Made by a program: the position numbers and the translations under genes
From: a virus
Taxonomy: Duplodnaviria > Heunggongvirae > Uroviricota > Caudoviricetes
Direction: 5' to 3' (one strand)
DNA: 9,586 nt
Virus record (IMG/VR): IMGVR_UViG_3300015179_000037
Coordinates: 1-9,586 of that record
The notes under the pieces: model-generated
Told to the model about the DNA's origin: nothing
Database searches by the model: none
The model's input: the letters and a program-made list of their open reading frames with translations, nothing else
Shown here: piece after piece, positions 1 to 9,586 of the stretch
Layout of the letters: each line of letters begins with the position of its first letter
Numbering within the stretch: the stretch's first letter is position 1

Positions 1-207
1 ATCAATGGTTCGTTTACTTGCAAAAGCAAGATACTCAAGCCTTTATCTATGTCCAAAAAAAATTGGTAAAATCATTTAAAGAAAAAACACAACAGTTTAC
101 AGGATTATCTGTCTTGATGTTTTATTATCAGGAAGCACAGCGTCAAGTTCCCGCGCACTACGGATAATGACAAAACCCGTCCTTTCGGTACGCTCCAGAC
201 GAAAAAA

Positions 208-612
208 GTGACTGGCAGTCTCAGCGCCGATATGCTGATTGACCTGAAATTTACGCTGCGCAATAAGTACCGCAAAAAAGCTGTATGGGTGATGAACTCA
301 AATACAGCCGCCTCCGCACAAAAACTGAAAAATGCCACTGGTGATTACATCTGGCGCGATCGTTTACAGGCTGGTGATCCTGATTCTCTGCTGGGGCTTC
401 CGGTTGAATATCTGGAATTTATGCCGGACGGTGTGATTGCAGTCGGTGACTTTAAGCGCGGTTATTTCATCGTTGACCATAAAACCGGTACGCGTACCCG
501 TCCGGATTTCAGCGAGCCTGGATTCATTAACATCTATACCCAGAAATATCTGGGCGGTGGTGTGGTGGATTCGAACGCCATCAAGATTCTGGAAATTCAG
601 GCTGGCAAGTAA
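208..612 (+). CDS. HK97-family major capsid protein, C-terminal portion only; the frame is open from 118 but closed upstream, so this is probably a 5'-truncated or interrupted gene.
   Basis: The translation (AVWVMNSNTAA...LLGLPVEYLEFMPDGVIAVGDFKRGYFIVDH...YLGGGVVDSNAIKILEI) has the pattern I associate with HK97-fold capsid C-termini. Frame 1 has stops at 67-69 and 115-117 and no other frame continues into it. The ORF-track start at 208 is a GTG. Confidence 0.55.
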   Translation: MTGSLSADMLIDLKFTLRNKYRKKAVWVMNSNTAASAQKLKNATGDYIWRDRLQAGDPDSLLGLPVEYLEFMPDGVIAVGDFKRGYFIVDHKTGTRTRPDFSEPGFINIYTQKYLGGGVVDSNAIKILEIQAGK

Positions 613-620
613 TGAGCAAA

Positions 621-641
621 GGGGGCTTCGGCCTCCTTTTT
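621..641 (+). terminator. Candidate intrinsic terminator or attenuator immediately after the capsid ORF
   Basis: GGGGGC-TTCG-GCCTCC forms a 6-bp stem (one G-U pair) with a UUCG tetraloop and is followed by TTTTT. It begins 9 nt after the capsid stop. Confidence 0.5.
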
Positions 642-661
642 CAGCTTTATGGAGTACACCG

Positions 662-1222
662 ATGAAAAACACCGATTTTGAAATCCGTACATCTGAACTG
701 ACCGCCAGCGATAAAAAACTGGTGGGTTATGCCGTTCGCTGGAACAGCCTTTCAGAAATTATCTGGGACGAGTTTCGCGAACAGTTCACGCCGGGGGCTT
801 TTGCTGACTATCTGGCGGCGGGTAATGATGTGCGCTGTCTGTATGAGCATGACTATACCCAACTGCTGGGGCGTACCAAATCCGGCTCACTGGTACTGAC
901 TGAGGATAACACCGGGCTACGTTTTGAACTGACACCGCCAAATACCCAGCTTGGAAAAGATGTGCTTACGCTGGTGGAACGTGGCGATATTACAGGAATG
1001 AGCTTTGGCTTTCGCGCATTATGCGAGGAGTGGAATATCGCGCAAAAACCGTATCTGCGTACTGTAACCGCCGCAGAACTCCGTGAAATCACGATAACAT
1101 CGATGCCTGCTTATCCCGAATCCGGCGTGGAGATTGCCCACCGTTCGTTGTTTGCACAGTACCCTGAATTACGCCCGGCAGGAAATAATCGTCATCGCTG
1201 GGCTGAACTGGCGGGGTTGTGA
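662..1222 (+). CDS. Prohead maturation protease, HK97 family (peptidase S78)
   Basis: The translation MKNTDFEIRTSELTASDKKLVGYAVRWNS...LLGRTKSGSLVLTEDNTGLRFELTPPNTQLGKDVLTLVERGDITGMSFGF matches the conserved layout of HK97 prohead proteases. The ATG at 662 has GGAG upstream; the track start at 437 is an in-frame upstream extension. Confidence 0.85.
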   Translation: MKNTDFEIRTSELTASDKKLVGYAVRWNSLSEIIWDEFREQFTPGAFADYLAAGNDVRCLYEHDYTQLLGRTKSGSLVLTEDNTGLRFELTPPNTQLGKDVLTLVERGDITGMSFGFRALCEEWNIAQKPYLRTVTAAELREITITSMPAYPESGVEIAHRSLFAQYPELRPAGNNRHRWAELAGL

Positions 1223-1223
1223 T

Positions 1224-2438
1224 ATGTGGTGGCCTTTTAGTCGTAAAAAAAGCGATCTGCGTAACCTGTCCATTGATGATTTTCTGGCGTTGTCTGGTGT
1301 ACCAAATACCGGATCCGGAGAATATGTTTCTGCCGGGACGGCTGAATCATTGCCTGCTGTGATGAACGCGGTTTCTGTCATCGCTGAGGCGGTGGCCACG
1401 ATGCCGTGTTACCTGTATCTGGTACGCAATGATAAGGGCAGAGAGGCGCGGGAATGGCTGGACAGTCACCCGGTAGATATTCTGCTGAATGAGCAGCCTA
1501 ATTCGTGCCTGACACCTTACCAGTTTAAACGCACAATGATGCGTCACTGCCTGCTGAACGGTAACGCCTATGCGGTTATTGAGTGGGGGCGGGACGGGCA
1601 GCCAAAATCACTTCATCCTTATGCGCCGGGGTGTGTTGTACCGGAACGCACAGGCACACACAAATACCGCTATACCATCACCGAACCCTGTACAGGAACG
1701 GTGCGCACGTATTTACAGGAAGAAGTTCTGCATCTCCGCTATGCCTCGGATGATGGCTTTCTGGGGCGTTCCCCCGTCACGATTTGCCGTGAGGCGCTGG
1801 GGCTTGGCCTTGCTCAACAGCGCCACGGAGCCAGCATTATGAAAGATGGCATGATGGCGGCAGGGATTATCACGTCAGGTGAATGGCTGGACGGCGTGAA
1901 AGGTAAACAGGCATTAGACGCACTGGAACGCTACAAGGGGGCGAAAAATGCCGGAAAAACGCCAATCCTTGAAGGGGGCATGGATTACAGGCGGCTGGGG
2001 ATGAGTAACCAGGATGCGGAATGGCTGGCCTCCCGTCGCTTCTCCATTGAAGACATCGCCAGGATGTTCAACGTGTCGCCGATTTTTCTTCAGGAATACA
2101 GCAACAGCACCTACAGCAATTTCAGTGAGGCGAGCCGCGCATTTCTGACCATGACAATGCGCCCGTGGCTGGCGAACTTCGAACAGCAAATCAAGGCCGC
2201 TTTGCTGGTGACTTCTCCCGTACCTGGTACCCGTTATCTGGTTGAGTTTGATTCAGCCGATTTACTGCGCGCCACACCCACCGAACGTTATGCCACGTAT
2301 GAGAAAGGGATTAAGAGCGGGATCATGAATCCGAACGAAGCTCGCGAACGCGAGGGTATGCCGCCGCGTGAAGGTGGTGATGAGTTCAGCCAGGCATGGA
2401 AACAGACTGTGGAAATTAAAGGGAGAAAAGATGAGTGA
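1224..2438 (+). CDS. Phage portal protein, HK97 family
   Basis: A 404-aa product whose C-terminal half (SIEDIARMFNVSPIFL...RPWLANFEQQI...RYLVEFDSADLLRATPTERYATYEKGIKSGIMNPNEAREREGMPP) is typical of HK97-type portals. The ATG at 1224 lies 1 nt after the protease stop; the track start at 1134 overlaps the protease. Confidence 0.85.
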   Translation: MWWPFSRKKSDLRNLSIDDFLALSGVPNTGSGEYVSAGTAESLPAVMNAVSVIAEAVATMPCYLYLVRNDKGREAREWLDSHPVDILLNEQPNSCLTPYQFKRTMMRHCLLNGNAYAVIEWGRDGQPKSLHPYAPGCVVPERTGTHKYRYTITEPCTGTVRTYLQEEVLHLRYASDDGFLGRSPVTICREALGLGLAQQRHGASIMKDGMMAAGIITSGEWLDGVKGKQALDALERYKGAKNAGKTPILEGGMDYRRLGMSNQDAEWLASRRFSIEDIARMFNVSPIFLQEYSNSTYSNFSEASRAFLTMTMRPWLANFEQQIKAALLVTSPVPGTRYLVEFDSADLLRATPTERYATYEKGIKSGIMNPNEAREREGMPPREGGDEFSQAWKQTVEIKGRKDE

Positions 2439-2733
2439 AGCCAGAATTACACCTGATGAAGTCAGGGCACATCTTCGACTTGATGATGATTTATCCGGTG
2501 AAGGCGAACTTCTGAAAATGTATACCGATGCGGCGCTGGAAGCCTGCCAGAAGCATATCGGGAAACGTTTTGAAGACGGGCTGGAATTTACCCCGGCAAT
2601 GCGTGTTGGTTGCCTGATGTACATCGCTTTCCTGTACGAGAACAGGGAAGCAGTTTCACCAGTGGAGCAGTCTGAACTGCCTATGGCTATTTCTGCGCTC
2701 TGGTCGGTTTATCGTGATGTGGGGGTGTACTGA
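2431..2733 (+). CDS. Head-tail connector / DNA-packaging protein, gp6-like
   Basis: The N-terminus MSEARITPDEVRAHLRLDDDLSGEGELL...AALEACQKHIGKRF fits the gp6-like connector family. GGGAG precedes the ATG at 2431, and the gene overlaps the portal stop by 8 nt. Confidence 0.75.
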   Translation: MSEARITPDEVRAHLRLDDDLSGEGELLKMYTDAALEACQKHIGKRFEDGLEFTPAMRVGCLMYIAFLYENREAVSPVEQSELPMAISALWSVYRDVGVY

Positions 2734-3173
2734 TGCCGTGGCAACCATTAAGGCGATGCACTGAGCCGGGCTGTAATAAGCGCGTGAAGTCCGGCAAGTG
2801 TGAAGAGCACAGACGGGCTGTATGGCGTGCAGAGGATGCCAGACGGGGACACCGCCGCGCGCGCGGGTATTCCCGACAGTGGGACAAATACCGCGCCCTG
2901 TACCTGAGCAAAAACCCGTTATGCGTGCGTTGTCTGGCTAAGGGGATTTATACGCCAGCTCTTGTGGTGGATCACATCATCCCCATCAATGGCGGCGGTG
3001 ATGTTCTCTTCTGGCCTGAGTGGAACCACCAGGCATTGTGCCAGACGTGCCACAACCGTAAGACGACACGGGAAGATCCAGCCACGAAAGCGAACCGTAA
3101 GGCGGGCATGTATCGCGAGCAGGAAGAACGGGCGGCACACCGTAACGACTGGATGTATGGCGATGATGACTGA
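2733..3173 (+). CDS. HNH endonuclease, terminase-associated type
   Basis: Cys pairs (CTEPGC, CVRCL, CQTCH) plus DHIIP and NH motifs are characteristic of HNH nucleases. It sits immediately upstream of the terminase genes, as HNH does in HK97-like packaging modules. Its ATG overlaps the connector stop (TGATG). Confidence 0.85.
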   Translation: MPWQPLRRCTEPGCNKRVKSGKCEEHRRAVWRAEDARRGHRRARGYSRQWDKYRALYLSKNPLCVRCLAKGIYTPALVVDHIIPINGGGDVLFWPEWNHQALCQTCHNRKTTREDPATKANRKAGMYREQEERAAHRNDWMYGDDD

Positions 3174-3461
3174 ACAGGAGCAAACCAGGCTGATACGTGG
3201 GTTGATAAGGCAGCGTGACACATGGAAGACACAGGAGACAGGGCACAAAGCCAACAGGACAGGGCGCACAAAACGCACCACAGCGAAGTGATTAACCGAC
3301 CGTGACCGCGAGGTCATGGAATGTTTTCGCAATCGCTGGTGAGGCCGTCAGAGGGGGTGGGGGTGGTTTTCAGGACGAAACCGCCCCTGCCGGACACCGA
3401 CCGCCTCCTCAAATTTTTGTGCACGGGAATTTTTTTGAAAATAATTGGGCGAAAAAAGAAC
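3174..3461 (+). promoter_or_regulatory. Candidate cos / terminase-recognition region between HNH and TerS
   Basis: This is the only sizeable non-coding gap in the module. It contains an imperfect direct repeat (ACAGGAGACAGGGCACAAA at 3231-3249 and ACAGGACAGGGCGCACAAA at 3254-3272), a G-tract GGGGGTGGGGGTGG at 3353-3366, and T/A runs just before the TerS start. Confidence 0.35.
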
Positions 3462-3818
3462 ATGGCAAGACCACCAAAAGCCCCCGCTTACCTGGATGAA
3501 ATCGCGGTCAGGCAGTGGAAGGAAAAATCGCGCCAGCTTTCCGGACGGGAAGACCTTACTCCCGCCGACTGGAGCAATCTGGAGCTGTATTGCGTTAACT
3601 ACTCCATATACCGCAAAGCCGTCGAAGACCTTGCCACGCGCGGGTTCAGCATTGTTAACAGTCAGGGCAGCGAGAGCAGAAACCCCGCCCTGAGCGCAAA
3701 GGCTGACGCTGAAAGAATAATGATCAAAATGGCTTCTTTGCTGGGTTTTGACCCGGTAAGTCGCCGCAGAAATCCACCGGAAACAGAGGAAGAGGACGAG
3801 CTTGACCGCCTGGCATGA
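3462..3818 (+). CDS. Terminase small subunit, P27 family
   Basis: The translation MARPPKAPAYLDEIAVRQWKE...LTPADWSNLELYCVNYSIYRKAVEDL fits the P27-type TerS. I chose the internal ATG at 3462 rather than the track start at 3321, because the extension runs through the G-tract and T-run region. Confidence 0.75.
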   Translation: MARPPKAPAYLDEIAVRQWKEKSRQLSGREDLTPADWSNLELYCVNYSIYRKAVEDLATRGFSIVNSQGSESRNPALSAKADAERIMIKMASLLGFDPVSRRRNPPETEEEDELDRLA

Positions 3819-5463
3819 GTACGCAGAAGGCGTAAAAAACGGCAAAATTACGGCCTGTAAACGACTGAAACAGGCCGTTAAACGGTATTTTTCTGACCTT
3901 GAAAACCCCCTTTACACGTTCGATCCGGAGGTCGTGGAGCGGTTTATTGCCTTTTCCAGGGTGTGTCCGCACGTAAAAGGCGCAATGCGCGGTAGCCCCA
4001 TTGAGCTGGAGCCGTGGCAGCAGTTCGCCTTTGCGTGCATCCTGGGCTTTAAGGTTAAGGCCACCGGACGGCGCAAATACACCAGCGCATTCATTGAAGT
4101 GCCGCGAAAAAATGCCAAATCCACGGTCGCCGCTATCCTGGCTAACTGGTTTCTGGTTATGGAAAACGGGCAGCAGGATATTTACACCGCCGCTGTGAGT
4201 CGTGATCAGGCGCGGATCGTGTTTGATGATGCGCGTCAGATGTGCCTTTTATCCCGACCGTTACGAAAGCGGGTAAATATTCAGGCACACAAGGTGATAC
4301 ACCCGAAAACCAACAGCCTGTTAAAGCCACTGGCAGCAAAAGCGGCAACCATTGAAGGTACAAACCCGAGTCTTGCCATTGTGGATGAATATCACCTGCA
4401 CCCTGACAACGGGGTTTATTCCGCGCTTGAACTGGGAATGGGGGCGCGTCCGGAGGGGCTGTTATTTGCCATCACCACATCGGGGAGCAACGTTGTTTCA
4501 GCCTGTAAACAACACTATGACTATTGCTGCCAGATACTGGATGGTGAAGAGGTGAACGAATCCATGTTCGTGCTGATTTACGAGCTGGATGATGAAAGCG
4601 AGGTTGACGATCCGGCGATGTGGATAAAGGCGAATCCCAATATCGATGTTTCCGTCGATCGTGAAAAACTGGCCTCAACCATCCAGAAAGCGCGGGGTAT
4701 TCCGTCGCAGTGGGTGGAAATGCTCACCAAGCGATTCAATATCTGGTGTCAGGGGGCTACGCCGTGGATGGGTAACGGTGCATGGGCGGAGTGCGCCGGA
4801 ACGTTCGCAGAGGCGGATTTATACGGTCAGGAGTGCTACGCGGGGCTGGACTTATCATCAACCAGCGATATTTCCAGCGTGTGCTATGCCTTTCCGGTCG
4901 GTAAAAAGATTATGCTGGTTTCCCGTCACTATCTGCCGGAATTTCAGCTACAGAACCCCGCCAATAAAAACCGCGCCATCTATCGCCAGTGGGTAAAGGC
5001 GGGCTGGATACGCACAACACCGGGTGACTGCATTGATTATGACCGTATCCGTGATGACATCATGGCGGATGCAGAGAATTTCAATATCAGGCTGGTGGGC
5101 TTCGATACATGGAACGCCACGCACCTGAGGACGCAGCTACAGGGGGCAGGATTTGAGGTGGAGCCGTTCCCGCAAACATACCTTCGTTTCAGTCCGGCGG
5201 CGAAATCGTTCGAAGTTTTTGTTAACCGGAAGGTGATTGTGCATCGTGGCGATCCGGTGCTGGCCTGGTCAATGAGTAATGTTGTGATGCAGAGTGACGC
5301 GAACGCCAATATCAAGCCGAACAAGAAAAAATCATCCAACAAGATAGACCCGAGCGTTGCGGCGCTGATGGCGTTTGGCACATTCCAGGCAGAGCATGAG
5401 GAATTTGCATTTGATATGAGCGACAGCCACAAAGAGCGGCTTGCGGCGTTTGATGGGGTATGA
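3802..5463 (+). CDS. Terminase large subunit (ATPase/nuclease)
   Basis: A 553-aa product with a Walker-A-like VPRKNAKST, a Walker-B-like LAIVDE and a C-terminal nuclease-like region. The start appears to be TTG at 3802, overlapping the TerS stop. Confidence 0.9.
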   Translation: MTAWHEYAEGVKNGKITACKRLKQAVKRYFSDLENPLYTFDPEVVERFIAFSRVCPHVKGAMRGSPIELEPWQQFAFACILGFKVKATGRRKYTSAFIEVPRKNAKSTVAAILANWFLVMENGQQDIYTAAVSRDQARIVFDDARQMCLLSRPLRKRVNIQAHKVIHPKTNSLLKPLAAKAATIEGTNPSLAIVDEYHLHPDNGVYSALELGMGARPEGLLFAITTSGSNVVSACKQHYDYCCQILDGEEVNESMFVLIYELDDESEVDDPAMWIKANPNIDVSVDREKLASTIQKARGIPSQWVEMLTKRFNIWCQGATPWMGNGAWAECAGTFAEADLYGQECYAGLDLSSTSDISSVCYAFPVGKKIMLVSRHYLPEFQLQNPANKNRAIYRQWVKAGWIRTTPGDCIDYDRIRDDIMADAENFNIRLVGFDTWNATHLRTQLQGAGFEVEPFPQTYLRFSPAAKSFEVFVNRKVIVHRGDPVLAWSMSNVVMQSDANANIKPNKKKSSNKIDPSVAALMAFGTFQAEHEEFAFDMSDSHKERLAAFDGV

Positions 5464-5753
5464 CGAGAATGAGCGAAACCGAACTACTAAAAATAATCCG
5501 CCGCGTTACCGGAATCAGCCAGGAAGCAGGCAAACAGGAGGCCACGCAGCCGGACAGCGTGATAGCCAAAAATTACGCGCGTGTGGTGGCTGAGGTGATG
5601 CGCCGTGACGGTATCGAGCTTAACGGCGTGGATATACGCAATATACGCACCAGAGTTCTGGAGTTGTTGTCATATCGTCGCCGCGTGGAGATGTACCAGG
5701 AGAAAGAAAAAATTACTTACCACTGGAAGAAGCCGGAGCGGTTGCGGCGGTAA
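5460..5753 (+). CDS. Hypothetical 97-aa basic protein, translationally coupled to TerL; function unknown
   Basis: Its ATG overlaps the TerL stop (GTATGA). I recognise no family from the sequence (MTRMSETELLKIIRRVTGISQEAGKQ...RRRVEMYQEKEKITYHWKKPERLRR). It is the last ORF before the non-coding island end. Confidence 0.5.
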   Translation: MTRMSETELLKIIRRVTGISQEAGKQEATQPDSVIAKNYARVVAEVMRRDGIELNGVDIRNIRTRVLELLSYRRRVEMYQEKEKITYHWKKPERLRR

Positions 5754-6046
5754 CTGGTTGATATTCCCGACGTTCCAAAAATGGGTTGGCTACACCCCTC
5801 ACAACTACGACATTTTCGCAGTTTAATTAATGGTCAGTTTAATCGCTAACCCGCTGATATTTTCGGAAACCTCAATTTGAGGAGACCGGAACGTCTACAT
5901 GGCTGCATCACCATAACGATGATTTAGCCCACCAGCAACCATAACGATTTCCGTTACAGTTGATGTGCTTTTTTGCTGGTAAGGCCTAACCCGTTGATTC
6001 TTCCACAATCCCCCATTGGGGGAGGCTGGGCGGCCTGCTGTGGGCT

Positions 6047-6065
6047 TTTCCACCATTGGTGGAAA
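6047..6065. repeat. Perfect 19-bp palindrome TTTCCACCATTGGTGGAAA, sharing a CCATTGG core with the 13-bp palindrome CCCCCATTGGGGG at 6010-6022
   Basis: Read directly from the sequence; the two palindromes are about 25 bp apart edge to edge. Confidence 0.9.
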
Positions 6066-6284
6066 GGTGCAGATCTGGATCATCATTACGGTGATCAAGG
6101 GTATGTAAAACCCACCAGCCTGATTGACATTTAACCGGAAAAAAGCCAGGTAGCCCCGTTATGGGGATCCCCATATCGACATTAACGCCCCTCATGAATT
6201 GGCGTGCTTCTCCCTGGAAAGATGACCCGCCTGTATATTTCTTGTGTCTATTTGTTCCACGTTGTTTCATACAGTGCACCGAAC

Positions 6285-6308
6285 GGTGTAGTTAATGGTG
6301 TAGTTAAT
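6285..6308. repeat. Perfect tandem duplication, 2 x 12 bp (GGTGTAGTTAAT)
   Basis: Read directly from the sequence; it lies close to the inferred island/chromosome junction. Confidence 0.9.
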
Positions 6309-6352
6309 TTGCGATTTTTGGCACTTCTTGCAGTGTATATTGTTTAATTAAA

Positions 6353-6391
6353 TCAATGCGTTATTGAAAATAAGTTATAGATATATCCCAT
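6353..6391 (-). pseudogene. allE: Probable orphaned 5' end of allE (ylbA): start codon and RBS retained after allC, gene body replaced by the insertion
   Basis: On the minus strand the allC stop is followed by AGGAG and, 10 nt later, ATG GGA TAT, which then runs into a stop after 12 codons (MGYIYNLFSITH*). From memory, E. coli AllE begins MGY and starts a few bp after allC. Confidence 0.4.
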
Positions 6392-6401
6392 TTATGACTC
6401 C

Positions 6402-7637
6402 TTATTTCTGCCAGGCAAGTTGATAAAGCATGAGTGCCAACGTTTTGACCCCTTCGGCAAGGTCGGTAATATTGGTGCGTTCCGCCGGGTTATGGCTGAT
6501 CCCATTGATGCTGGGAATGAAAATCATGCAGGTTGGTACGCGAGGCGCGAAAATTTGCGCGTCGTGCCCGGCACCACTGTGCATCACCCGGTAATTCAGT
6601 TTTTCGCTTTCACACAATTCTGTCAGGGTGGCGACCAGGTCCTTATTCATCGGCACGGGTTCTTCGTCCATCCATAAATCGATATCAATACCAATGTCCA
6701 TTTCATCGCAAATCGCCCGCATGTCGTTTTCTAACTGCTGAGTGAAATCGCGCAGCACGGCGGCGTCGGTATGACGACAATCAATGGTGAATGTGGTTTT
6801 ACCCGGCACCACATTCACCGTATTCGGGCGCGGCTCCACCTTACCAAAGGTCAGCACCAGCGGGTCGCCCATCTTTTTCGCTTTTTCGATCGACTGATGG
6901 CAAATGCGACTGAAAGCGTAAACTGTATCACGACGGTAACCCATCGGCGTGGTGCCTGCATGGTTTGATTCGCCGTTCAGCGTCACCGTATAGCGACGTT
7001 GCCCGACAATTGCATTCACCACGCCAATTGATTGCCCATTACTTTCCAGCACACAGCCCTGTTCGATATGCAGTTCGACAAAGGCTTTAATATCCTGACG
7101 CGGAGTTAGCGGGGCGTCCGGCAGAGTAAATCCGCAAGCCTTCATCGCATCGACAAAACTATTTCCTTTGGCATCACAGATATTCCGCACGTCGTCAGGA
7201 TTCGCCAGCCCAAAGATATTTTTACTGCCCCAGAAAACATACGGGAAGCGGCTGCCTTCTTCTTCCGCCATCGCCACCACTTCAACCGTACGTAACGGCG
7301 CGCCGTATTGCCTTTTCAACCAGTCAATTGCCAGCCACGCCGCCAGCGCGCCGAATTGCCCGTCGAGGTTACCGCCGTTAACCACGGTATCGATATGCGA
7401 ACCGCTCAGAACCACTTCCTGTGGATATTCGGTGCCACTCAGGCGACCGTATAAATTCCCCACTTCATCGAAACGTGTTTCCAGCCCGCTTGCTGCCATT
7501 CTTTTTTTAAATTGCTGCTGGGTTTCCAGCCATTCCGGCGAATAAAGTAAACGGGTCATCCCACCCGTTGGGTCAGCGCCAAAAGAGGAAAGCCAGGGCA
7601 GCGTTTCTTCTATGGCTTGACGGAAATGTGTAATCAT
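6402..7637 (-). CDS. allC: Allantoate amidohydrolase
   Basis: The translation MITHFRQAIEETLPWLSSFGADP...LMLYQLAWQK matches E. coli AllC as I recall it across its length. The start is the ATG at 7637 with an AGGA RBS; the track start at 7655 is an upstream extension. Confidence 0.93.
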   Translation of the reverse strand: MITHFRQAIEETLPWLSSFGADPTGGMTRLLYSPEWLETQQQFKKRMAASGLETRFDEVGNLYGRLSGTEYPQEVVLSGSHIDTVVNGGNLDGQFGALAAWLAIDWLKRQYGAPLRTVEVVAMAEEEGSRFPYVFWGSKNIFGLANPDDVRNICDAKGNSFVDAMKACGFTLPDAPLTPRQDIKAFVELHIEQGCVLESNGQSIGVVNAIVGQRRYTVTLNGESNHAGTTPMGYRRDTVYAFSRICHQSIEKAKKMGDPLVLTFGKVEPRPNTVNVVPGKTTFTIDCRHTDAAVLRDFTQQLENDMRAICDEMDIGIDIDLWMDEEPVPMNKDLVATLTELCESEKLNYRVMHSGAGHDAQIFAPRVPTCMIFIPSINGISHNPAERTNITDLAEGVKTLALMLYQLAWQK

Positions 7638-7658
7638 AAGAAAGTCCTGTCTCAATAA

Positions 7659-8708
7659 TTATTGCGCAAAGGGATTTTTCGTTTCGTATGACGTGTTATA
7701 AAGCGCGTCGGAAATTAAATACTGGTAAATATCATCAACAATTTCGATGCCTTCGACGGCGGCTTTGCGTTGTTTCATATCCTGATCCTGTCCGGGATAA
7801 TAAACCTGGTTAAAACCGGGCGCGGGGGTTATGGCATTTAATTCGCGCATGGTCTGGCTAAGATGTTGACGGAATAGTTCGCTGGAGGAGAAAAAGTTCG
7901 GATTAATAACGATATGTAATTGCCCCAAATTACGCCCGGCGTGTAAATCGTCATACATCGAACTAACCTGTCGCCCGAACGGTAAGCCGAGTAAGACGCC
8001 TGAGAGGACGTCAATCATCATCATCAGGCCATACCCTTTCGGTCCGGCGGCAGGGAGCAGGGCGTTAACTGCAAATGGATCGGTTGTTGGTGCTCCGTTT
8101 TTATCGACCGCCCAGGTATCCGGGATAGACATATTACGCGAGCGGGCGTCGAGCACTTTTCCCCATGCCTGTACGGTAGTCGCCATATCAAAGGTAAGGA
8201 TCTCGTCGCCTTCTCCCGGCGCGGCAAAGGCCAGTGGGTTAGTACCGTAGTAAATTTCCGCGCCGCCAAACGGCACCACCATTGGATCGGACTGGCACAT
8301 CGAAATGCCAATTAATCCGGCGCGGGCTGCCTGCTGCACAAAATAAGAGATTGCGCCGCTGTGACCCATCCGGCTGATACCGACCACCGCAACGCCATTT
8401 TGCTGGGCGGTTTTGATGGCATGTTCCATACCCATTTTCGCCGCGACCTGTCCGGCGGCATTGTCGGCATGTAAAATTGCCGAGCACGGCCCGGTTTCCT
8501 CAAGACGAAACTCCGGTTCGCGGTTGGTGCCGCCTTTTGAAATGCGTTCTGCGTAGTATTCAACACGCACCGCGCCATGAGAGTGGATCCCTCTGGCATC
8601 GGCGTAAACCAATACTTCAGCCACGGTTGCAGCGTGCTCACGTTTTAACCCAGCCTGGCAGAGTTTATTCTCAATTAGCTGGTGGAGTGTTTCCCGACTG
8701 ATTTTCAT
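7659..8708 (-). CDS. allD: Ureidoglycolate dehydrogenase
   Basis: The 349-aa translation MKISRETLHQLIENKLCQAGLKREHAATVAEVLVYADARGIHSHGAVRVEYY... matches E. coli AllD. An AAGGAAG RBS precedes it, and it lies 21 bp upstream of allC in the same orientation. Confidence 0.93.
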   Translation of the reverse strand: MKISRETLHQLIENKLCQAGLKREHAATVAEVLVYADARGIHSHGAVRVEYYAERISKGGTNREPEFRLEETGPCSAILHADNAAGQVAAKMGMEHAIKTAQQNGVAVVGISRMGHSGAISYFVQQAARAGLIGISMCQSDPMVVPFGGAEIYYGTNPLAFAAPGEGDEILTFDMATTVQAWGKVLDARSRNMSIPDTWAVDKNGAPTTDPFAVNALLPAAGPKGYGLMMMIDVLSGVLLGLPFGRQVSSMYDDLHAGRNLGQLHIVINPNFFSSSELFRQHLSQTMRELNAITPAPGFNQVYYPGQDQDMKQRKAAVEGIEIVDDIYQYLISDALYNTSYETKNPFAQ

Positions 8709-9024
8709 CTGTCTTCCTTTTTAACGACGGTGTGAAGCATGACTGCAATTAACATACAGGGAAAATATCTGGATTATGTGATCCAGACAGGCAAAAAAAT
8801 ATAGTTAGAATTTATTTGATAATCCGCTCACTTTTAACCTGATTTTTAAAACAACCACGCTTATTAAAAAATAATGAGTAATAGCCTGGCGGTTATTTGA
8901 ATTCTTTTGTTAATAATTCCTGTGTGATATTCATCACCTTATTTACTCGTTGTCATCGATACCGTAATCGCCACATTAACACTGCTCGTGCAATTGCCAT
9001 GAGTGCAATTTTTAAGGAGTTGTT
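8709..9024. promoter_or_regulatory. Divergent allD / fdrA intergenic control region
   Basis: An AT-rich 316-bp gap between divergently oriented genes. It contains an inverted repeat TCTGGAT-N6-ATCCAGA at 8768-8787 and a GTGCAATT direct repeat pair (8990-8997 and 9003-9010) just upstream of the fdrA RBS. Confidence 0.5.
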
Positions 9025-9586
9025 ATGATCCACGCCTTTATTAAAAAAGGGTGTTTTCAGGATTCGGTCAGTTTAATGATTATTTCACGAAAACTCAGCG
9101 AATCAGAAAATGTTGATGATGTTTCCGTAATGATGGGTACGCCCGCCAATAAAGCGTTATTAGATACCACAGGTTTCTGGCATGACGATTTTAATAACGC
9201 CACGCCGAACGATATTTGCGTGGCAATTCGTAGCGAAGCGGCGGATGCGGGGATCGCGCAGGCGATTATGCAGCAGCTTGAAGAGGCGCTAAAACAACTG
9301 GCGCAGGGGTCAGGCAGCAGCCAGGCGTTGACGCAGGTGCGTCGCTGGGACAGTGCCTGTCAGAAATTACCCGATGCCAATCTGGCGCTGATTTCAGTGG
9401 CTGGCGAGTATGCGGCGGAGCTGGCAAACCAGGCGCTGGATCGCAACCTCAACGTGATGATGTTCTCCGATAACGTCACGCTGGAAGATGAAATCCAACT
9501 TAAAACCCGCGCGCGGGAAAAAGGCTTGCTGGTGATGGGGCCGGACTGCGGTACGTCGATGATTGCCGGCAGATCGGAAGAGCGTC
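9025..9586 (+). CDS. fdrA: FdrA, 5' partial; runs off the window, and the final 16 nt are probably adapter rather than gene
   Basis: AAGGAG RBS then ATG at 9025; the translation MIHAFIKKGCFQDSVSLMIISRKLSESENVDDVSVMMGTPANKALLDTTGFWHDDF... matches E. coli FdrA as I recall it. Confidence 0.85.
   Translation, partial: MIHAFIKKGCFQDSVSLMIISRKLSESENVDDVSVMMGTPANKALLDTTGFWHDDFNNATPNDICVAIRSEAADAGIAQAIMQQLEEALKQLAQGSGSSQALTQVRRWDSACQKLPDANLALISVAGEYAAELANQALDRNLNVMMFSDNVTLEDEIQLKTRAREKGLLVMGPDCGTSMIAGRSEER
9571..9586. other. Probable Illumina adapter remnant (AGATCGGAAGAGCGTC) at the 3' end of the contig/window
   Basis: An exact 16-nt match to the start of the standard Illumina TruSeq adapter AGATCGGAAGAGCGTCGTGTAGGG..., located exactly at the window end. 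Confidence 0.8.

What the first reader, a model, noticed from the sequence alone, without database searches (positions are those of the whole stretch)
118..5753. Head-only capsid/packaging module in non-canonical order, ending directly at the chromosome: candidate capsid-forming PICI-type satellite
The genes run capsid, protease, portal, gp6-like connector, HNH, TerS, TerL, all on one strand with overlapping or near-abutting stops and starts. In HK97-like phages the order is TerS, TerL, portal, protease, capsid, connector, tails, with HNH at the far end, so this is not a circular permutation of a normal prophage. No tail, tape-measure or lysis gene follows before the island ends. This content and order matches what I recall for capsid-forming phage-inducible chromosomal islands, which build their own small capsids and package with their own terminase/HNH but use helper-phage tails. 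A decayed prophage is the alternative.
Basis: partly seen in the sequence, partly recalled or inferred. Interest (0 to 1): 0.6.

Follow-up and report, generated by a model that had tools for sequence, protein, structure and literature searches.

The report
Known capsid-forming PICI satellite, right half
This is the packaging half of an already described kind of E. coli phage satellite (a capsid-forming PICI related to EcCIEDL933), and it looks "head-only" mainly because the sequence is a short-read contig that stops inside the capsid gene.

Summary
The gene calls and their order are correct: capsid, prohead protease, portal, gp6-like connector, HNH, TerS, TerL. All lie on the + strand and all have strong Pfam/PHROG matches. 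Three details are wrong.

1. The "capsid" is only the C-terminal 154 of 381 residues. Bases 1-147 are a 100% match to an Enterococcus holB gene, joined bluntly and out of frame. The other end of the window carries an Illumina adapter. The window is therefore a whole short-read contig with artefactual ends.
2. The island does not end at 5753. It runs to a 15-bp att core at 6383-6397, next to allC.

Near-identical islands sit at the same allE/allC site in E. coli AST19 and AST20 (99.7% and 99.1% identity). They supply the missing left half: P4-type integrase, AlpA, D5-type primase with iterons, and SSB. They have no tail or lysis genes, and the AST20 copy measures 14.7 kb. The module is colinear with the experimentally studied prototype EcCIEDL933 (56-93% amino-acid identity, dN/dS 0.10-0.26).

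The cf-PICI reading is supported and the decayed-prophage reading is not. The one real difference is that this sub-lineage (about 143 E. coli genomes) lacks the PF05521 head-completion gene. Interest is low because the kind is already known.

The parts
148..612 (+). Major capsid protein gene (HK97 fold family). Only the C-terminal 154 of 381 codons are present, because the contig ends here.
   Evidence: PF05065 E 2e-30, profile positions 125-279 of 280. 100% amino-acid identity to residues 228-381 of the AST20 capsid and 77% to the EcCIEDL933 capsid.
613..661 (+). GC-rich hairpin followed by a U run between the capsid and protease genes. It looks like a terminator or attenuator.
   Evidence: RNA fold -18.7 kcal/mol. 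A hairpin of different sequence sits at the same position in EcCIEDL933 and vB_KppS-Ant. Function is inferred.
662..1222 (+). Prohead (head maturation) serine protease, S78 family.
   Evidence: PF04586 E 4.5e-45; phrog_80 E 1.8e-59. 61% amino-acid identity to EcCIEDL933.
1224..2438 (+). Portal protein.
   Evidence: PF04860 E 5.8e-91; phrog_12 E 7.7e-117. 80% amino-acid identity to EcCIEDL933.
2431..2733 (+). gp6-like head-tail connector (Ad1 adaptor). It is the only head-tail joining gene in this lineage.
   Evidence: PF05135 E 2.3e-5; phrog_40 E 1.8e-28. 56% amino-acid identity to the EcCIEDL933 connector. No PF05521 head-completion homologue is present.
2733..3173 (+). HNH endonuclease, the packaging cofactor of HK97-type terminases.
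   Evidence: PF01844 E 8.8e-10; phrog_144 E 7e-45. 84% amino-acid identity to EcCIEDL933.
3157..3342 (+). Conserved 61-codon ORF of unknown function. In this window it is interrupted by TGA at 3289-3291.
   Evidence: The intact AST20 copy matches phrog_3173 at E 5.6e-28. Nonsense codon. Homologues are present in EcCIEDL933 and vB_KppS-Ant.
3343..3461 (+). Conserved non-coding region upstream of terS. It is the candidate cos/packaging initiation site (inferred).
   Evidence: About 90% identical to EcCIEDL933 although neighbouring genes have dS 0.5-0.7. The linear vB_KppS-Ant record ends at the motif GGGGTGGGGG.GGTTTTCAGGAC, which aligns to window 3353-3376.
3462..3818 (+). Small terminase subunit, P27 family.
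   Evidence: PF05119 E 1.6e-23; phrog_83 E 3e-38. 88% amino-acid identity to EcCIEDL933.
3802..5463 (+). Large terminase subunit (ATPase plus nuclease domains).
   Evidence: PF03354 E 4.3e-26 and PF20441 E 1.8e-52; phrog_9 E 4.5e-181. 93.5% amino-acid identity to EcCIEDL933.
5460..5753 (+). 97-codon ORF of unknown function, the last gene of the island.
   Evidence: phrog_1561 E 3.3e-49. 73% amino-acid identity to the last gene of EcCIEDL933. A homologue is also the last gene of a classical PICI in E. coli Nissle 1917.
5754..6382 (.). Non-coding right arm of the island. It holds two 15-bp palindromes (6009-6023 and 6049-6063) and a tandem 12-mer, GGTGTAGTTAAT x2, at 6285-6308.
   Evidence: Shared with islands at other chromosomal sites, so it belongs to the island. 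The tandem 12-mer recurs next to int in AST20, E200139 and EDL933, consistent with arm-type integrase sites (inferred). Palindromes.
6383..6397 (.). attR core ATATCCCATTTATGA, which overlaps the native allE start codon.
   Evidence: There is a single copy in the empty K-12 site and direct copies at both island ends in AST19 and AST20.

Best explanation
Window 148-6397 is the right-hand (morphogenesis and packaging) half of a capsid-forming phage-inducible chromosomal island (cf-PICI) of the EcCIEDL933 family. It is integrated between allE and allC of an E. coli chromosome.

The working model comes from the published EcCIEDL933 work and is not shown here:
1. A helper prophage is induced and de-represses the island.
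2. Integrase and AlpA excise the island at the 15-bp att core.
3. The primase-replicase replicates it.
4. Capsid, protease and portal build small T=4 procapsids.
5. TerS, TerL and HNH cut the island's own cos site and fill the capsids with the roughly 14.7-kb island DNA. The cos site probably lies in the conserved non-coding stretch at 3343-3461.
6. The gp6-like connector on the portal lets the filled heads join tails made by the helper phage.

The missing left half and the truncated capsid gene are artefacts of a short-read contig whose two ends are a chimeric Enterococcus fragment and a sequencing adapter.
For: - Gene identities and order.
- Colinearity with EcCIEDL933 and 56-93% amino-acid identity to it; the prototype lies between roxA and phoQ in EDL933.
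- The published order for proteobacterial cf-PICIs is the same. Published search criteria: section 39.
- Complete islands at the same site in AST19 and AST20 have int, AlpA, D5-type primase with iterons and SSB, and no tail or lysis genes.
- 15-bp att repeats lie 14,662 bp apart in AST20, and K-12 has a single copy at the empty site.
- Mobility: against AST19 the island differs at 21 of 6250 positions, while the flanking allC-fdrA DNA differs at 75 of 3173. The same island also occurs at roxA/phoQ in strain E200139.
- Purifying selection: dN/dS 0.10-0.26 against EcCIEDL933.
- 503 of 5426 complete E. coli genomes hold at least 80% of the module.
- Contig artefacts.
Against: - The window itself holds no integrase, regulator or replicase, and only 40% of the capsid gene. 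Completeness of this particular copy is inferred from relatives.
- The PF05521 head-completion ('adaptor') gene, present in every experimentally studied cf-PICI, is absent.
- The small conserved ORF at 3157-3342 carries a nonsense codon in this copy.
- No helper phage, induction, packaging or cos cleavage was or could be tested here.
Confidence: 0.9

Rival explanations
1. Decayed prophage remnant: the head module of an HK97-like prophage that lost its tail, lysis and lysogeny genes by deletion and is no longer mobile.
For: Only head and packaging genes are visible in the window. The capsid gene is incomplete, and one small ORF has a nonsense codon.
Against: - The gene order is not a permutation of the HK97 order, and it matches the published cf-PICI order.
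- Full copies have precise att repeats, int, AlpA and primase within 14.7 kb.
- All seven large genes are intact, with dN/dS 0.10-0.26.
- The island is far more conserved than its flank between strains, and it occurs at a second chromosomal site.
- The capsid truncation coincides with a chimeric contig end.
Confidence: 0.03
2. A genuinely truncated island: in the source organism, foreign (Enterococcus-like) DNA or a deletion really abuts the middle of the capsid gene, leaving a dead cf-PICI fragment.
For: The sequence as given reads straight from Enterococcus holB DNA into capsid codon 228, with no Ns and no adapter at the join.
Against: - The 147 bp are an internal piece of a Gram-positive housekeeping gene, 100% identical to Enterococcus contigs.
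- The length is about that of one short read.
- The join is blunt and out of frame, with no mobile-element end.
- The opposite contig end carries an untrimmed Illumina adapter, which shows that read-level artefacts survived assembly.
- None of 5426 E. coli genomes or 72,556 plasmids has the 147 bp.
Confidence: 0.04
3. Part of a complete, autonomous phage whose tail and lysis genes lie upstream of the window.
For: Similar DNA is deposited under phage names.
Against: - Ten genomes with the same right junction, and others with the island elsewhere, show int, AlpA and primase directly upstream of the capsid gene, with no tail genes.
- The record named as a phage, vB_KppS-Ant, is only 16.5 kb and has a cf-PICI layout.
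Confidence: 0.01

Closest known systems
EcCIEDL933, the prototype capsid-forming PICI of E. coli O157:H7 EDL933 (Alqurainy et al.; bioRxiv 10.1101/2022.09.08.507074 and 10.1101/2025.02.11.637232)
   Same: - Same gene order: capsid, protease, portal, connector, HNH, small ORF, TerS (P27 type), TerL, terminal roughly 95-aa ORF.
- Protein identities: capsid 77%, protease 61%, portal 80%, connector 56%, HNH 84%, TerS 88%, TerL 93.5%, last ORF 73%.
- Conserved non-coding stretch before terS.
- Same tandem GGTGTAGTTAAT repeats near both island ends.
- In complete relatives, the same int-AlpA-Icd-DUF4222-primase-SSB left half.
   Different: - It lacks the PF05521 head-completion gene that sits between the portal and connector genes in EcCIEDL933.
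- It is integrated at allE/allC rather than roxA/phoQ, although an almost identical island sits at roxA/phoQ in strain E200139.
- Relatives carry a ProQ/FinO gene where EcCIEDL933 has PerC, and a D5-type primase where EcCIEDL933 has a DUF927 protein.
Classical E. coli PICIs (EcCICFT073 type; an example was seen in Nissle 1917 next to tRNA-Pro)
   Same: They share the left-half architecture (int, AlpA, Icd-like, DUF4222, P4-type primase, SSB) and a homologue of the terminal 97-aa ORF.
   Different: Classical PICIs have no portal, protease, connector, HNH or TerL, and they use helper capsids. Under the SatelliteFinder rules, portal and connector genes exclude an element from that class (PMC10085698).
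HK97-like temperate siphophages
   Same: They are homologous in HK97-fold capsid, S78 protease, portal, gp6-like connector, and HNH-dependent TerS/TerL cos packaging.
   Different: The phage order is TerS-TerL-portal-protease-capsid-connectors-tails, with HNH at the far end. Phages also carry tail, lysis and lysogeny modules and are about 40 kb. None of that applies here or in the complete relatives.
'Escherichia phage vB_KppS-Ant' (LR881103, 16.5 kb, induced prophage)
   Same: It is the best match in the phage collection (76.8% nucleotide identity over capsid to HNH). It has the same module order, plus int and primase.
   Different: It has the PF05521 gene and a large extra ORF after TerL that is annotated as a tape-measure protein. 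It is deposited as a phage, but its layout is that of a cf-PICI.

Membership tests
cf-PICI (capsid-forming phage-inducible chromosomal island) | Own capsid-forming genes: major capsid, prohead protease and portal. | tested here: met
   Pfam and PHROG matches. The capsid gene is partial only because the contig ends. It is full length (381 aa) in AST19 and AST20.
cf-PICI (capsid-forming phage-inducible chromosomal island) | Own packaging genes: HNH, TerS and TerL. | tested here: met
   PF01844, PF05119, PF03354 and PF20441. 84-93% amino-acid identity to EcCIEDL933.
cf-PICI (capsid-forming phage-inducible chromosomal island) | Proteobacterial gene order: capsid-protease-portal-head connectors, then hnh-terS-terL. 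| tested here: met
   Coordinates. Published order quoted.
cf-PICI (capsid-forming phage-inducible chromosomal island) | Both head-tail joining genes (adaptor and connector). | tested here: not met
   Only the gp6-like PF05135 gene is present. No PF05521 homologue was found in the window or in AST20/E200139 (tblastn E>1). About 143 E. coli genomes share this one-gene arrangement. SatelliteFinder accepts elements that lack one or two of its 11 core markers as Type B or Type C cfPICI. This makes the island a variant and does not exclude it from the family.
cf-PICI (capsid-forming phage-inducible chromosomal island) | No tail or lysis genes. | tested here: met
   There are none between TerL and attR in the window. 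There are none anywhere in the complete AST19, AST20 or E200139 islands.
cf-PICI (capsid-forming phage-inducible chromosomal island) | Integrase, AlpA-type regulator and primase-replicase in the left half; total size about 10-18 kb. | tested here: inconclusive
   These are absent from the window because the contig is truncated. They are met in near-identical islands at the same site: int (PF00589 plus Arm-DNA-bind_3), AlpA (PF05930, E 2.7e-18) and D5-type primase, with 14,662 bp between the att cores in AST20.
cf-PICI (capsid-forming phage-inducible chromosomal island) | Specific attachment site flanked by direct repeats and not used by prophages. | tested here: inconclusive
   The 15-bp core is present as attR in the window, as attL plus attR in relatives, and as a single copy in K-12. 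Whether prophages ever use this site was not examined.
cf-PICI (capsid-forming phage-inducible chromosomal island) | Helper-phage-dependent induction, small (T=4) island-encoded capsids, and use of helper tails. | not testable with these tools
   This needs induction and transfer experiments and electron microscopy. It has been shown for EcCIEDL933 only.
Classical PICI (Rpp/TerS-redirecting type) | No portal, connector or TerL genes; depends on helper capsids. | tested here: not met
   Portal, connector and TerL genes are present. These are 'forbidden' components in the PICI model.
Complete HK97-like prophage | Tail, tape-measure and lysis modules contiguous with the head module; TerS-TerL-portal-protease-capsid order. 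| tested here: not met
   The order differs. No such modules are present in the window or in complete relatives.

The most novel reading that the evidence does not exclude
The one-connector sub-lineage, which has no PF05521 head-completion gene and occurs in about 143 complete E. coli genomes, may not be a 'tails-only' thief. To finish its heads it may also have to take the helper phage's head-completion (stopper) protein. Alternatively, its diverged gp6-like connector may dock tails directly. Published work shows that the adaptor and connector proteins set tail specificity. A lineage without the adaptor would therefore have a different helper-compatibility rule, possibly a broader or a stricter one.
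Probability: 0.3. Interest if true: 0.4.

Novelty: already known. Interest (0 to 1): 0.15.

Why it matters
There is little new biology here. cf-PICIs were described in 2022-2023, have been catalogued by the hundreds in Enterobacteriaceae, and their prototype is a close relative of this element.

The result is useful in three practical ways:
- A 'head-only' island on a draft contig should not be read as a biological truncation until the contig ends have been checked. Here the ends are a chimeric read and an adapter.
- It defines the exact att core, and it shows that integration removes the native allE start codon and separates allE from allDC.
- It flags a common sub-lineage without the head-completion gene. 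That would be a cheap experimental test of what cf-PICIs really need from their helpers.

Tried and rejected
- I searched window 1-260 against 5426 E. coli genomes and 1-150 against PLSDB plasmids for an IS or transposon end that could explain the capsid truncation. Neither search matched bases 1-147. The match was instead to Enterococcus holB.
- tRNA scan: none found, so this is not a tRNA-site island.
- Rfam at E<=1 over the whole window gave only a chance snoRNA hit. No known RNA family lies in the 630-bp non-coding right arm or in the candidate cos region.
- The promoter and terminator consensus scans gave counts no higher than shuffled sequence.
- I first took the 26-bp repeat at 6285-6308 as the att core. 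Alignment with the empty K-12 site showed the true core is 75 bp further out, and the repeat is internal to both arms.
- I looked for EcCIEDL933 at 1.62-1.67 Mb of EDL933 and found a lambdoid prophage there instead. The island is at 1.680-1.696 Mb.
- I looked for a head-completion homologue anywhere in the window, AST20 or E200139 by tblastn and found none.
- I checked whether the 106-kb 'Klebsiella phage P12620-1' is a true phage with the same order. Its sparse annotation (67 features, all 'hypothetical protein' in the ends viewed) shows an ORF layout consistent with int, primase and capsid at the record end, so it does not support the prophage rival.
They were not needed.

Full report
**What is in the window**

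Six-frame ORF listing and profile searches confirm a + strand run of head and packaging genes:

| Coordinates | Gene | Best evidence |
|---|---|---|
| 148-612 | Major capsid, fragment only | PF05065, E 2e-30, profile positions 125-279 of 280 |
| 662-1222 | S78 prohead protease | E 4.5e-45 |
| 1224-2438 | Portal | E 5.8e-91 |
| 2431-2733 | gp6-like/Ad1 head-tail connector | phrog_40, E 1.8e-28 |
| 2733-3173 | HNH endonuclease | phrog_144, E 7e-45 |
| 3157-3342 | 61-codon conserved ORF | phrog_3173 (intact AST20 copy) |
| 3462-3818 | P27-type TerS | E 1.6e-23 |
| 3802-5463 | TerL | phrog_9, E 4.5e-181 |
| 5460-5753 | 97-codon ORF | phrog_1561, E 3.3e-49 |

After about 630 bp of non-coding DNA come the chromosomal genes allC (6402-7655, - strand), allD (7659-8708, - strand) and the start of fdrA.

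**The two ends of the window are artefacts**

- All E. coli matches start at exactly base 148. Alignment with the closest genome shows identity from 148 onward and unrelated sequence before it.
- Bases 1-147 match none of 5426 complete E. coli genomes and no PLSDB plasmid.
- Those 147 bases are 100% identical to two 'UNVERIFIED_ORG' wastewater contigs. There they lie inside a 312-codon holB (DNA polymerase III delta') gene, within a dnaX-recR-tmk-holB-yabA cluster typical of Firmicutes.
- That holB protein is 97% identical to the one in Enterococcus lactis.
- The join is blunt, and holB and the capsid gene are in different frames.
- At the other end, fdrA homology stops at 9570, and 9571-9586 read AGATCGGAAGAGCGTC, the start of the Illumina TruSeq adapter (the adapter identity is from my own knowledge).
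- The window is therefore a whole short-read contig. Its left tip is about one read length of chimeric DNA. The truncated capsid gene and the missing left half are limits of the assembly, not features of the element.

**Where the island really ends**

- The empty site in K-12 has allE starting 10 bp from the allC stop codon, with a single copy of ATATCCCATTTATGA.
- The window has that 15-mer at 6383-6397.
- AST20 and AST19 have it at the right end and a variant (ATATCCCTTTTATCA) at the left end. The two copies are 14,662 bp apart in AST20 and 14,913 bp apart in AST19.
- The island therefore extends to 6397, not 5753.
- A tandem 12-mer, GGTGTAGTTAAT x2, lies about 75-120 bp inside both ends, at 6285-6308 in the window. 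It recurs in EcCIEDL933 and in the E200139 island. This fits arm-type integrase sites, which is an inference.

**What lies to the left in complete copies**

Ten of 5426 genomes have the island at allE/allC. AST19 is 99.7% identical over 148-6397. AST20 is 99.1% identical over 148-9571. Upstream of the capsid gene both carry:

- a P4-type integrase (Arm-DNA-bind_3 plus Phage_integrase);
- AlpA (PF05930, E 2.7e-18);
- an Icd-like protein and DUF4222;
- a D5/P4-type primase followed by GTGAACAG-type iterons;
- SSB and ProQ/FinO.

There is no tail, tape-measure, holin or endolysin gene. An almost identical island sits between roxA and phoQ in strain E200139.

**Comparison with what is known**

- The founding paper describes EcCIEDL933 as a 15.4-kb element with int, alpA and rep, plus capsid, protease, portal, head-tail connectors, HNH, TerS and TerL, and no tail genes. 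It states that proteobacterial cf-PICIs have the conserved order capsid-protease-portal-head connectors followed by hnh-terS-terL (10.1101/2022.09.08.507074).
- Later work lists the same search criteria (10.1101/2025.02.11.637232, section 39). SatelliteFinder reports 969 cfPICI, found in 13% of Enterobacteriaceae genomes (PMC10085698).
- I located EcCIEDL933 in the EDL933 chromosome between roxA and phoQ. It is colinear with the window.
- Protein identities to EcCIEDL933 are: capsid 77%, protease 61%, portal 80%, connector 56%, HNH 84%, small ORF 70%, TerS 88%, TerL 93.5%, last ORF 73%.
- dN/dS against the prototype is 0.10-0.26 for the genes where it could be computed. The genes are therefore maintained by selection.
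- Against AST19 the island differs at 21 of 6250 positions, while the adjacent chromosome differs at 75 of 3173. That is expected for a recently mobile element landing in different backgrounds.
- At least 80% of the module is present in 503 of 5426 complete E. coli genomes.
- The only similar records in the phage collection are vB_KppS-Ant, a 16.5-kb 'induced prophage' with a cf-PICI layout, and a poorly annotated 106-kb record whose ORF sizes and positions suggest an int-primase-capsid layout at its end.

**How it most likely works**

Shown here:
- gene content, gene order and the att sites;
- homology to a tested element;
- signs of selection and mobility.

Taken from the EcCIEDL933 literature and inferred for this element:
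- helper-dependent de-repression;
- excision by Int and AlpA, and replication by the primase-replicase;
- assembly of small T=4 capsids from the island's own capsid, protease and portal;
- cos cleavage and packaging by TerS, TerL and HNH;
- joining of the filled heads to helper tails through the connector.

The cos site is probably in the 119-bp non-coding stretch at 3343-3461. That stretch is about 90% conserved against EcCIEDL933, while the neighbouring genes have dS 0.5-0.7. The linear vB_KppS-Ant record ends exactly at the conserved motif that aligns to window 3353-3376. This is suggestive only, because I do not know how that record's ends were set.

**The one real difference**

- EcCIEDL933 and vB_KppS-Ant have a PF05521 head-completion gene between the portal and connector genes.
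- This lineage does not. The portal gene overlaps the connector gene directly, and tblastn finds no homologue in the window or in the complete islands.
- A search with the portal-connector-HNH junction found 534 E. coli genomes. About 143 match at 90% identity or more; every such hit listed was a single 801-bp piece with no head-closure annotation. About 391 match at lower identity; the listed hits span about 1137 bp and carry an annotated head closure gene.
- The published catalogue already accepts elements lacking one core marker as 'Type B'. I therefore treat this as a known kind of variation.
- It does raise a testable question: does this sub-lineage also borrow the helper's head-completion protein?

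**Verdict**

The genes and their order are right. The start, the end and the 'head-only' reading are wrong in detail.
- The cf-PICI interpretation is supported, with confidence about 0.9.
- The kind is already known and interest is low.

Noticed in passing
window 1-147: This stretch is 100% identical to an internal fragment of an Enterococcus (faecium/lactis group) holB gene. It is joined bluntly and out of frame to the E. coli capsid gene. It is about one short-read length, so it is most likely a chimeric read or insert at the contig tip.
   Followed up: yes
window 9571-9586: An untrimmed Illumina adapter (AGATCGGAAGAGCGTC) follows fdrA sequence directly, which shows that the window is a complete contig from unclean short reads.
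   Followed up: yes
window 6383-6401; L001 11538-11586: The island integrates at the first codons of allE. In AST19 and AST20 the attL copy of the core changes the native allE ATG (CCCATTT becomes CCCTTTT). RefSeq annotates a shorter allE there (744 nt against 786 nt), and the gene is now 14.7 kb away from allDC. A possible effect on allantoin use was not examined.
   Followed up: partly
window 3289-3291 and 3134-3384: The conserved 61-codon ORF after HNH has a CGA-to-TGA nonsense change that is absent from AST19 and AST20. Seven of the roughly 21 island differences from AST19 cluster in this 250-bp stretch, next to the candidate cos region. The cause could be a recombination patch, a fast-evolving site or read errors.
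   Followed up: partly
window 613-661; L037 19282-19320; L038 13451-13501: A GC-rich hairpin with a U-rich tail follows the capsid gene in three diverged islands, and its sequence differs in each. With the capsid gene first in the operon, partial termination here could set a high ratio of capsid to portal and protease.
   Followed up: partly
window 5460-5753; L039 12002-12283: Homologues of the terminal 97-codon ORF (phrog_1561, function unknown) are also the last gene of a classical, non-capsid-forming PICI in E. coli Nissle 1917. About 1000 further E. coli genomes that lack the packaging module match only this right-end region (orf97 and/or the adjacent non-coding DNA). It appears to be a shared PICI/cf-PICI end gene.
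   Followed up: partly
window 6009-6023 and 6049-6063 (also 6157-6178): Two related 15-bp perfect palindromes, TCCCCCATTGGGGGA and TCCACCATTGGTGGA, lie 40 bp apart in the 630-bp non-coding right arm. A third palindrome lies about 100 bp further on. They look like binding sites for a dimeric protein. Their function is unknown.
   Followed up: no
L001 17281-17464: Repeats of the GTGAACAG type lie directly after the primase gene of the complete island. They look like a PICI-type replication origin with iterons.
   Followed up: no
L038 (LR881103, 'Escherichia phage vB_KppS-Ant') and L041 (PQ569648, 'Klebsiella phage P12620-1'): Two records deposited as phages look like a packaged cf-PICI (16.5 kb; int, primase, head module) and a long contig that ends in an island with a cf-PICI-like layout. 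vB_KppS-Ant carries a 2.3-kb ORF after TerL that is annotated as a tape-measure protein, which would be unusual for a cf-PICI.
   Followed up: partly
L001 (AST20), record positions 153989 and 666217: AST20 and several other genomes carry two or more islands with identical capsid segments (up to 7 matching places per genome). Such repeats would break short-read assemblies inside the island, which may be why this contig stops inside the capsid gene.
   Followed up: no
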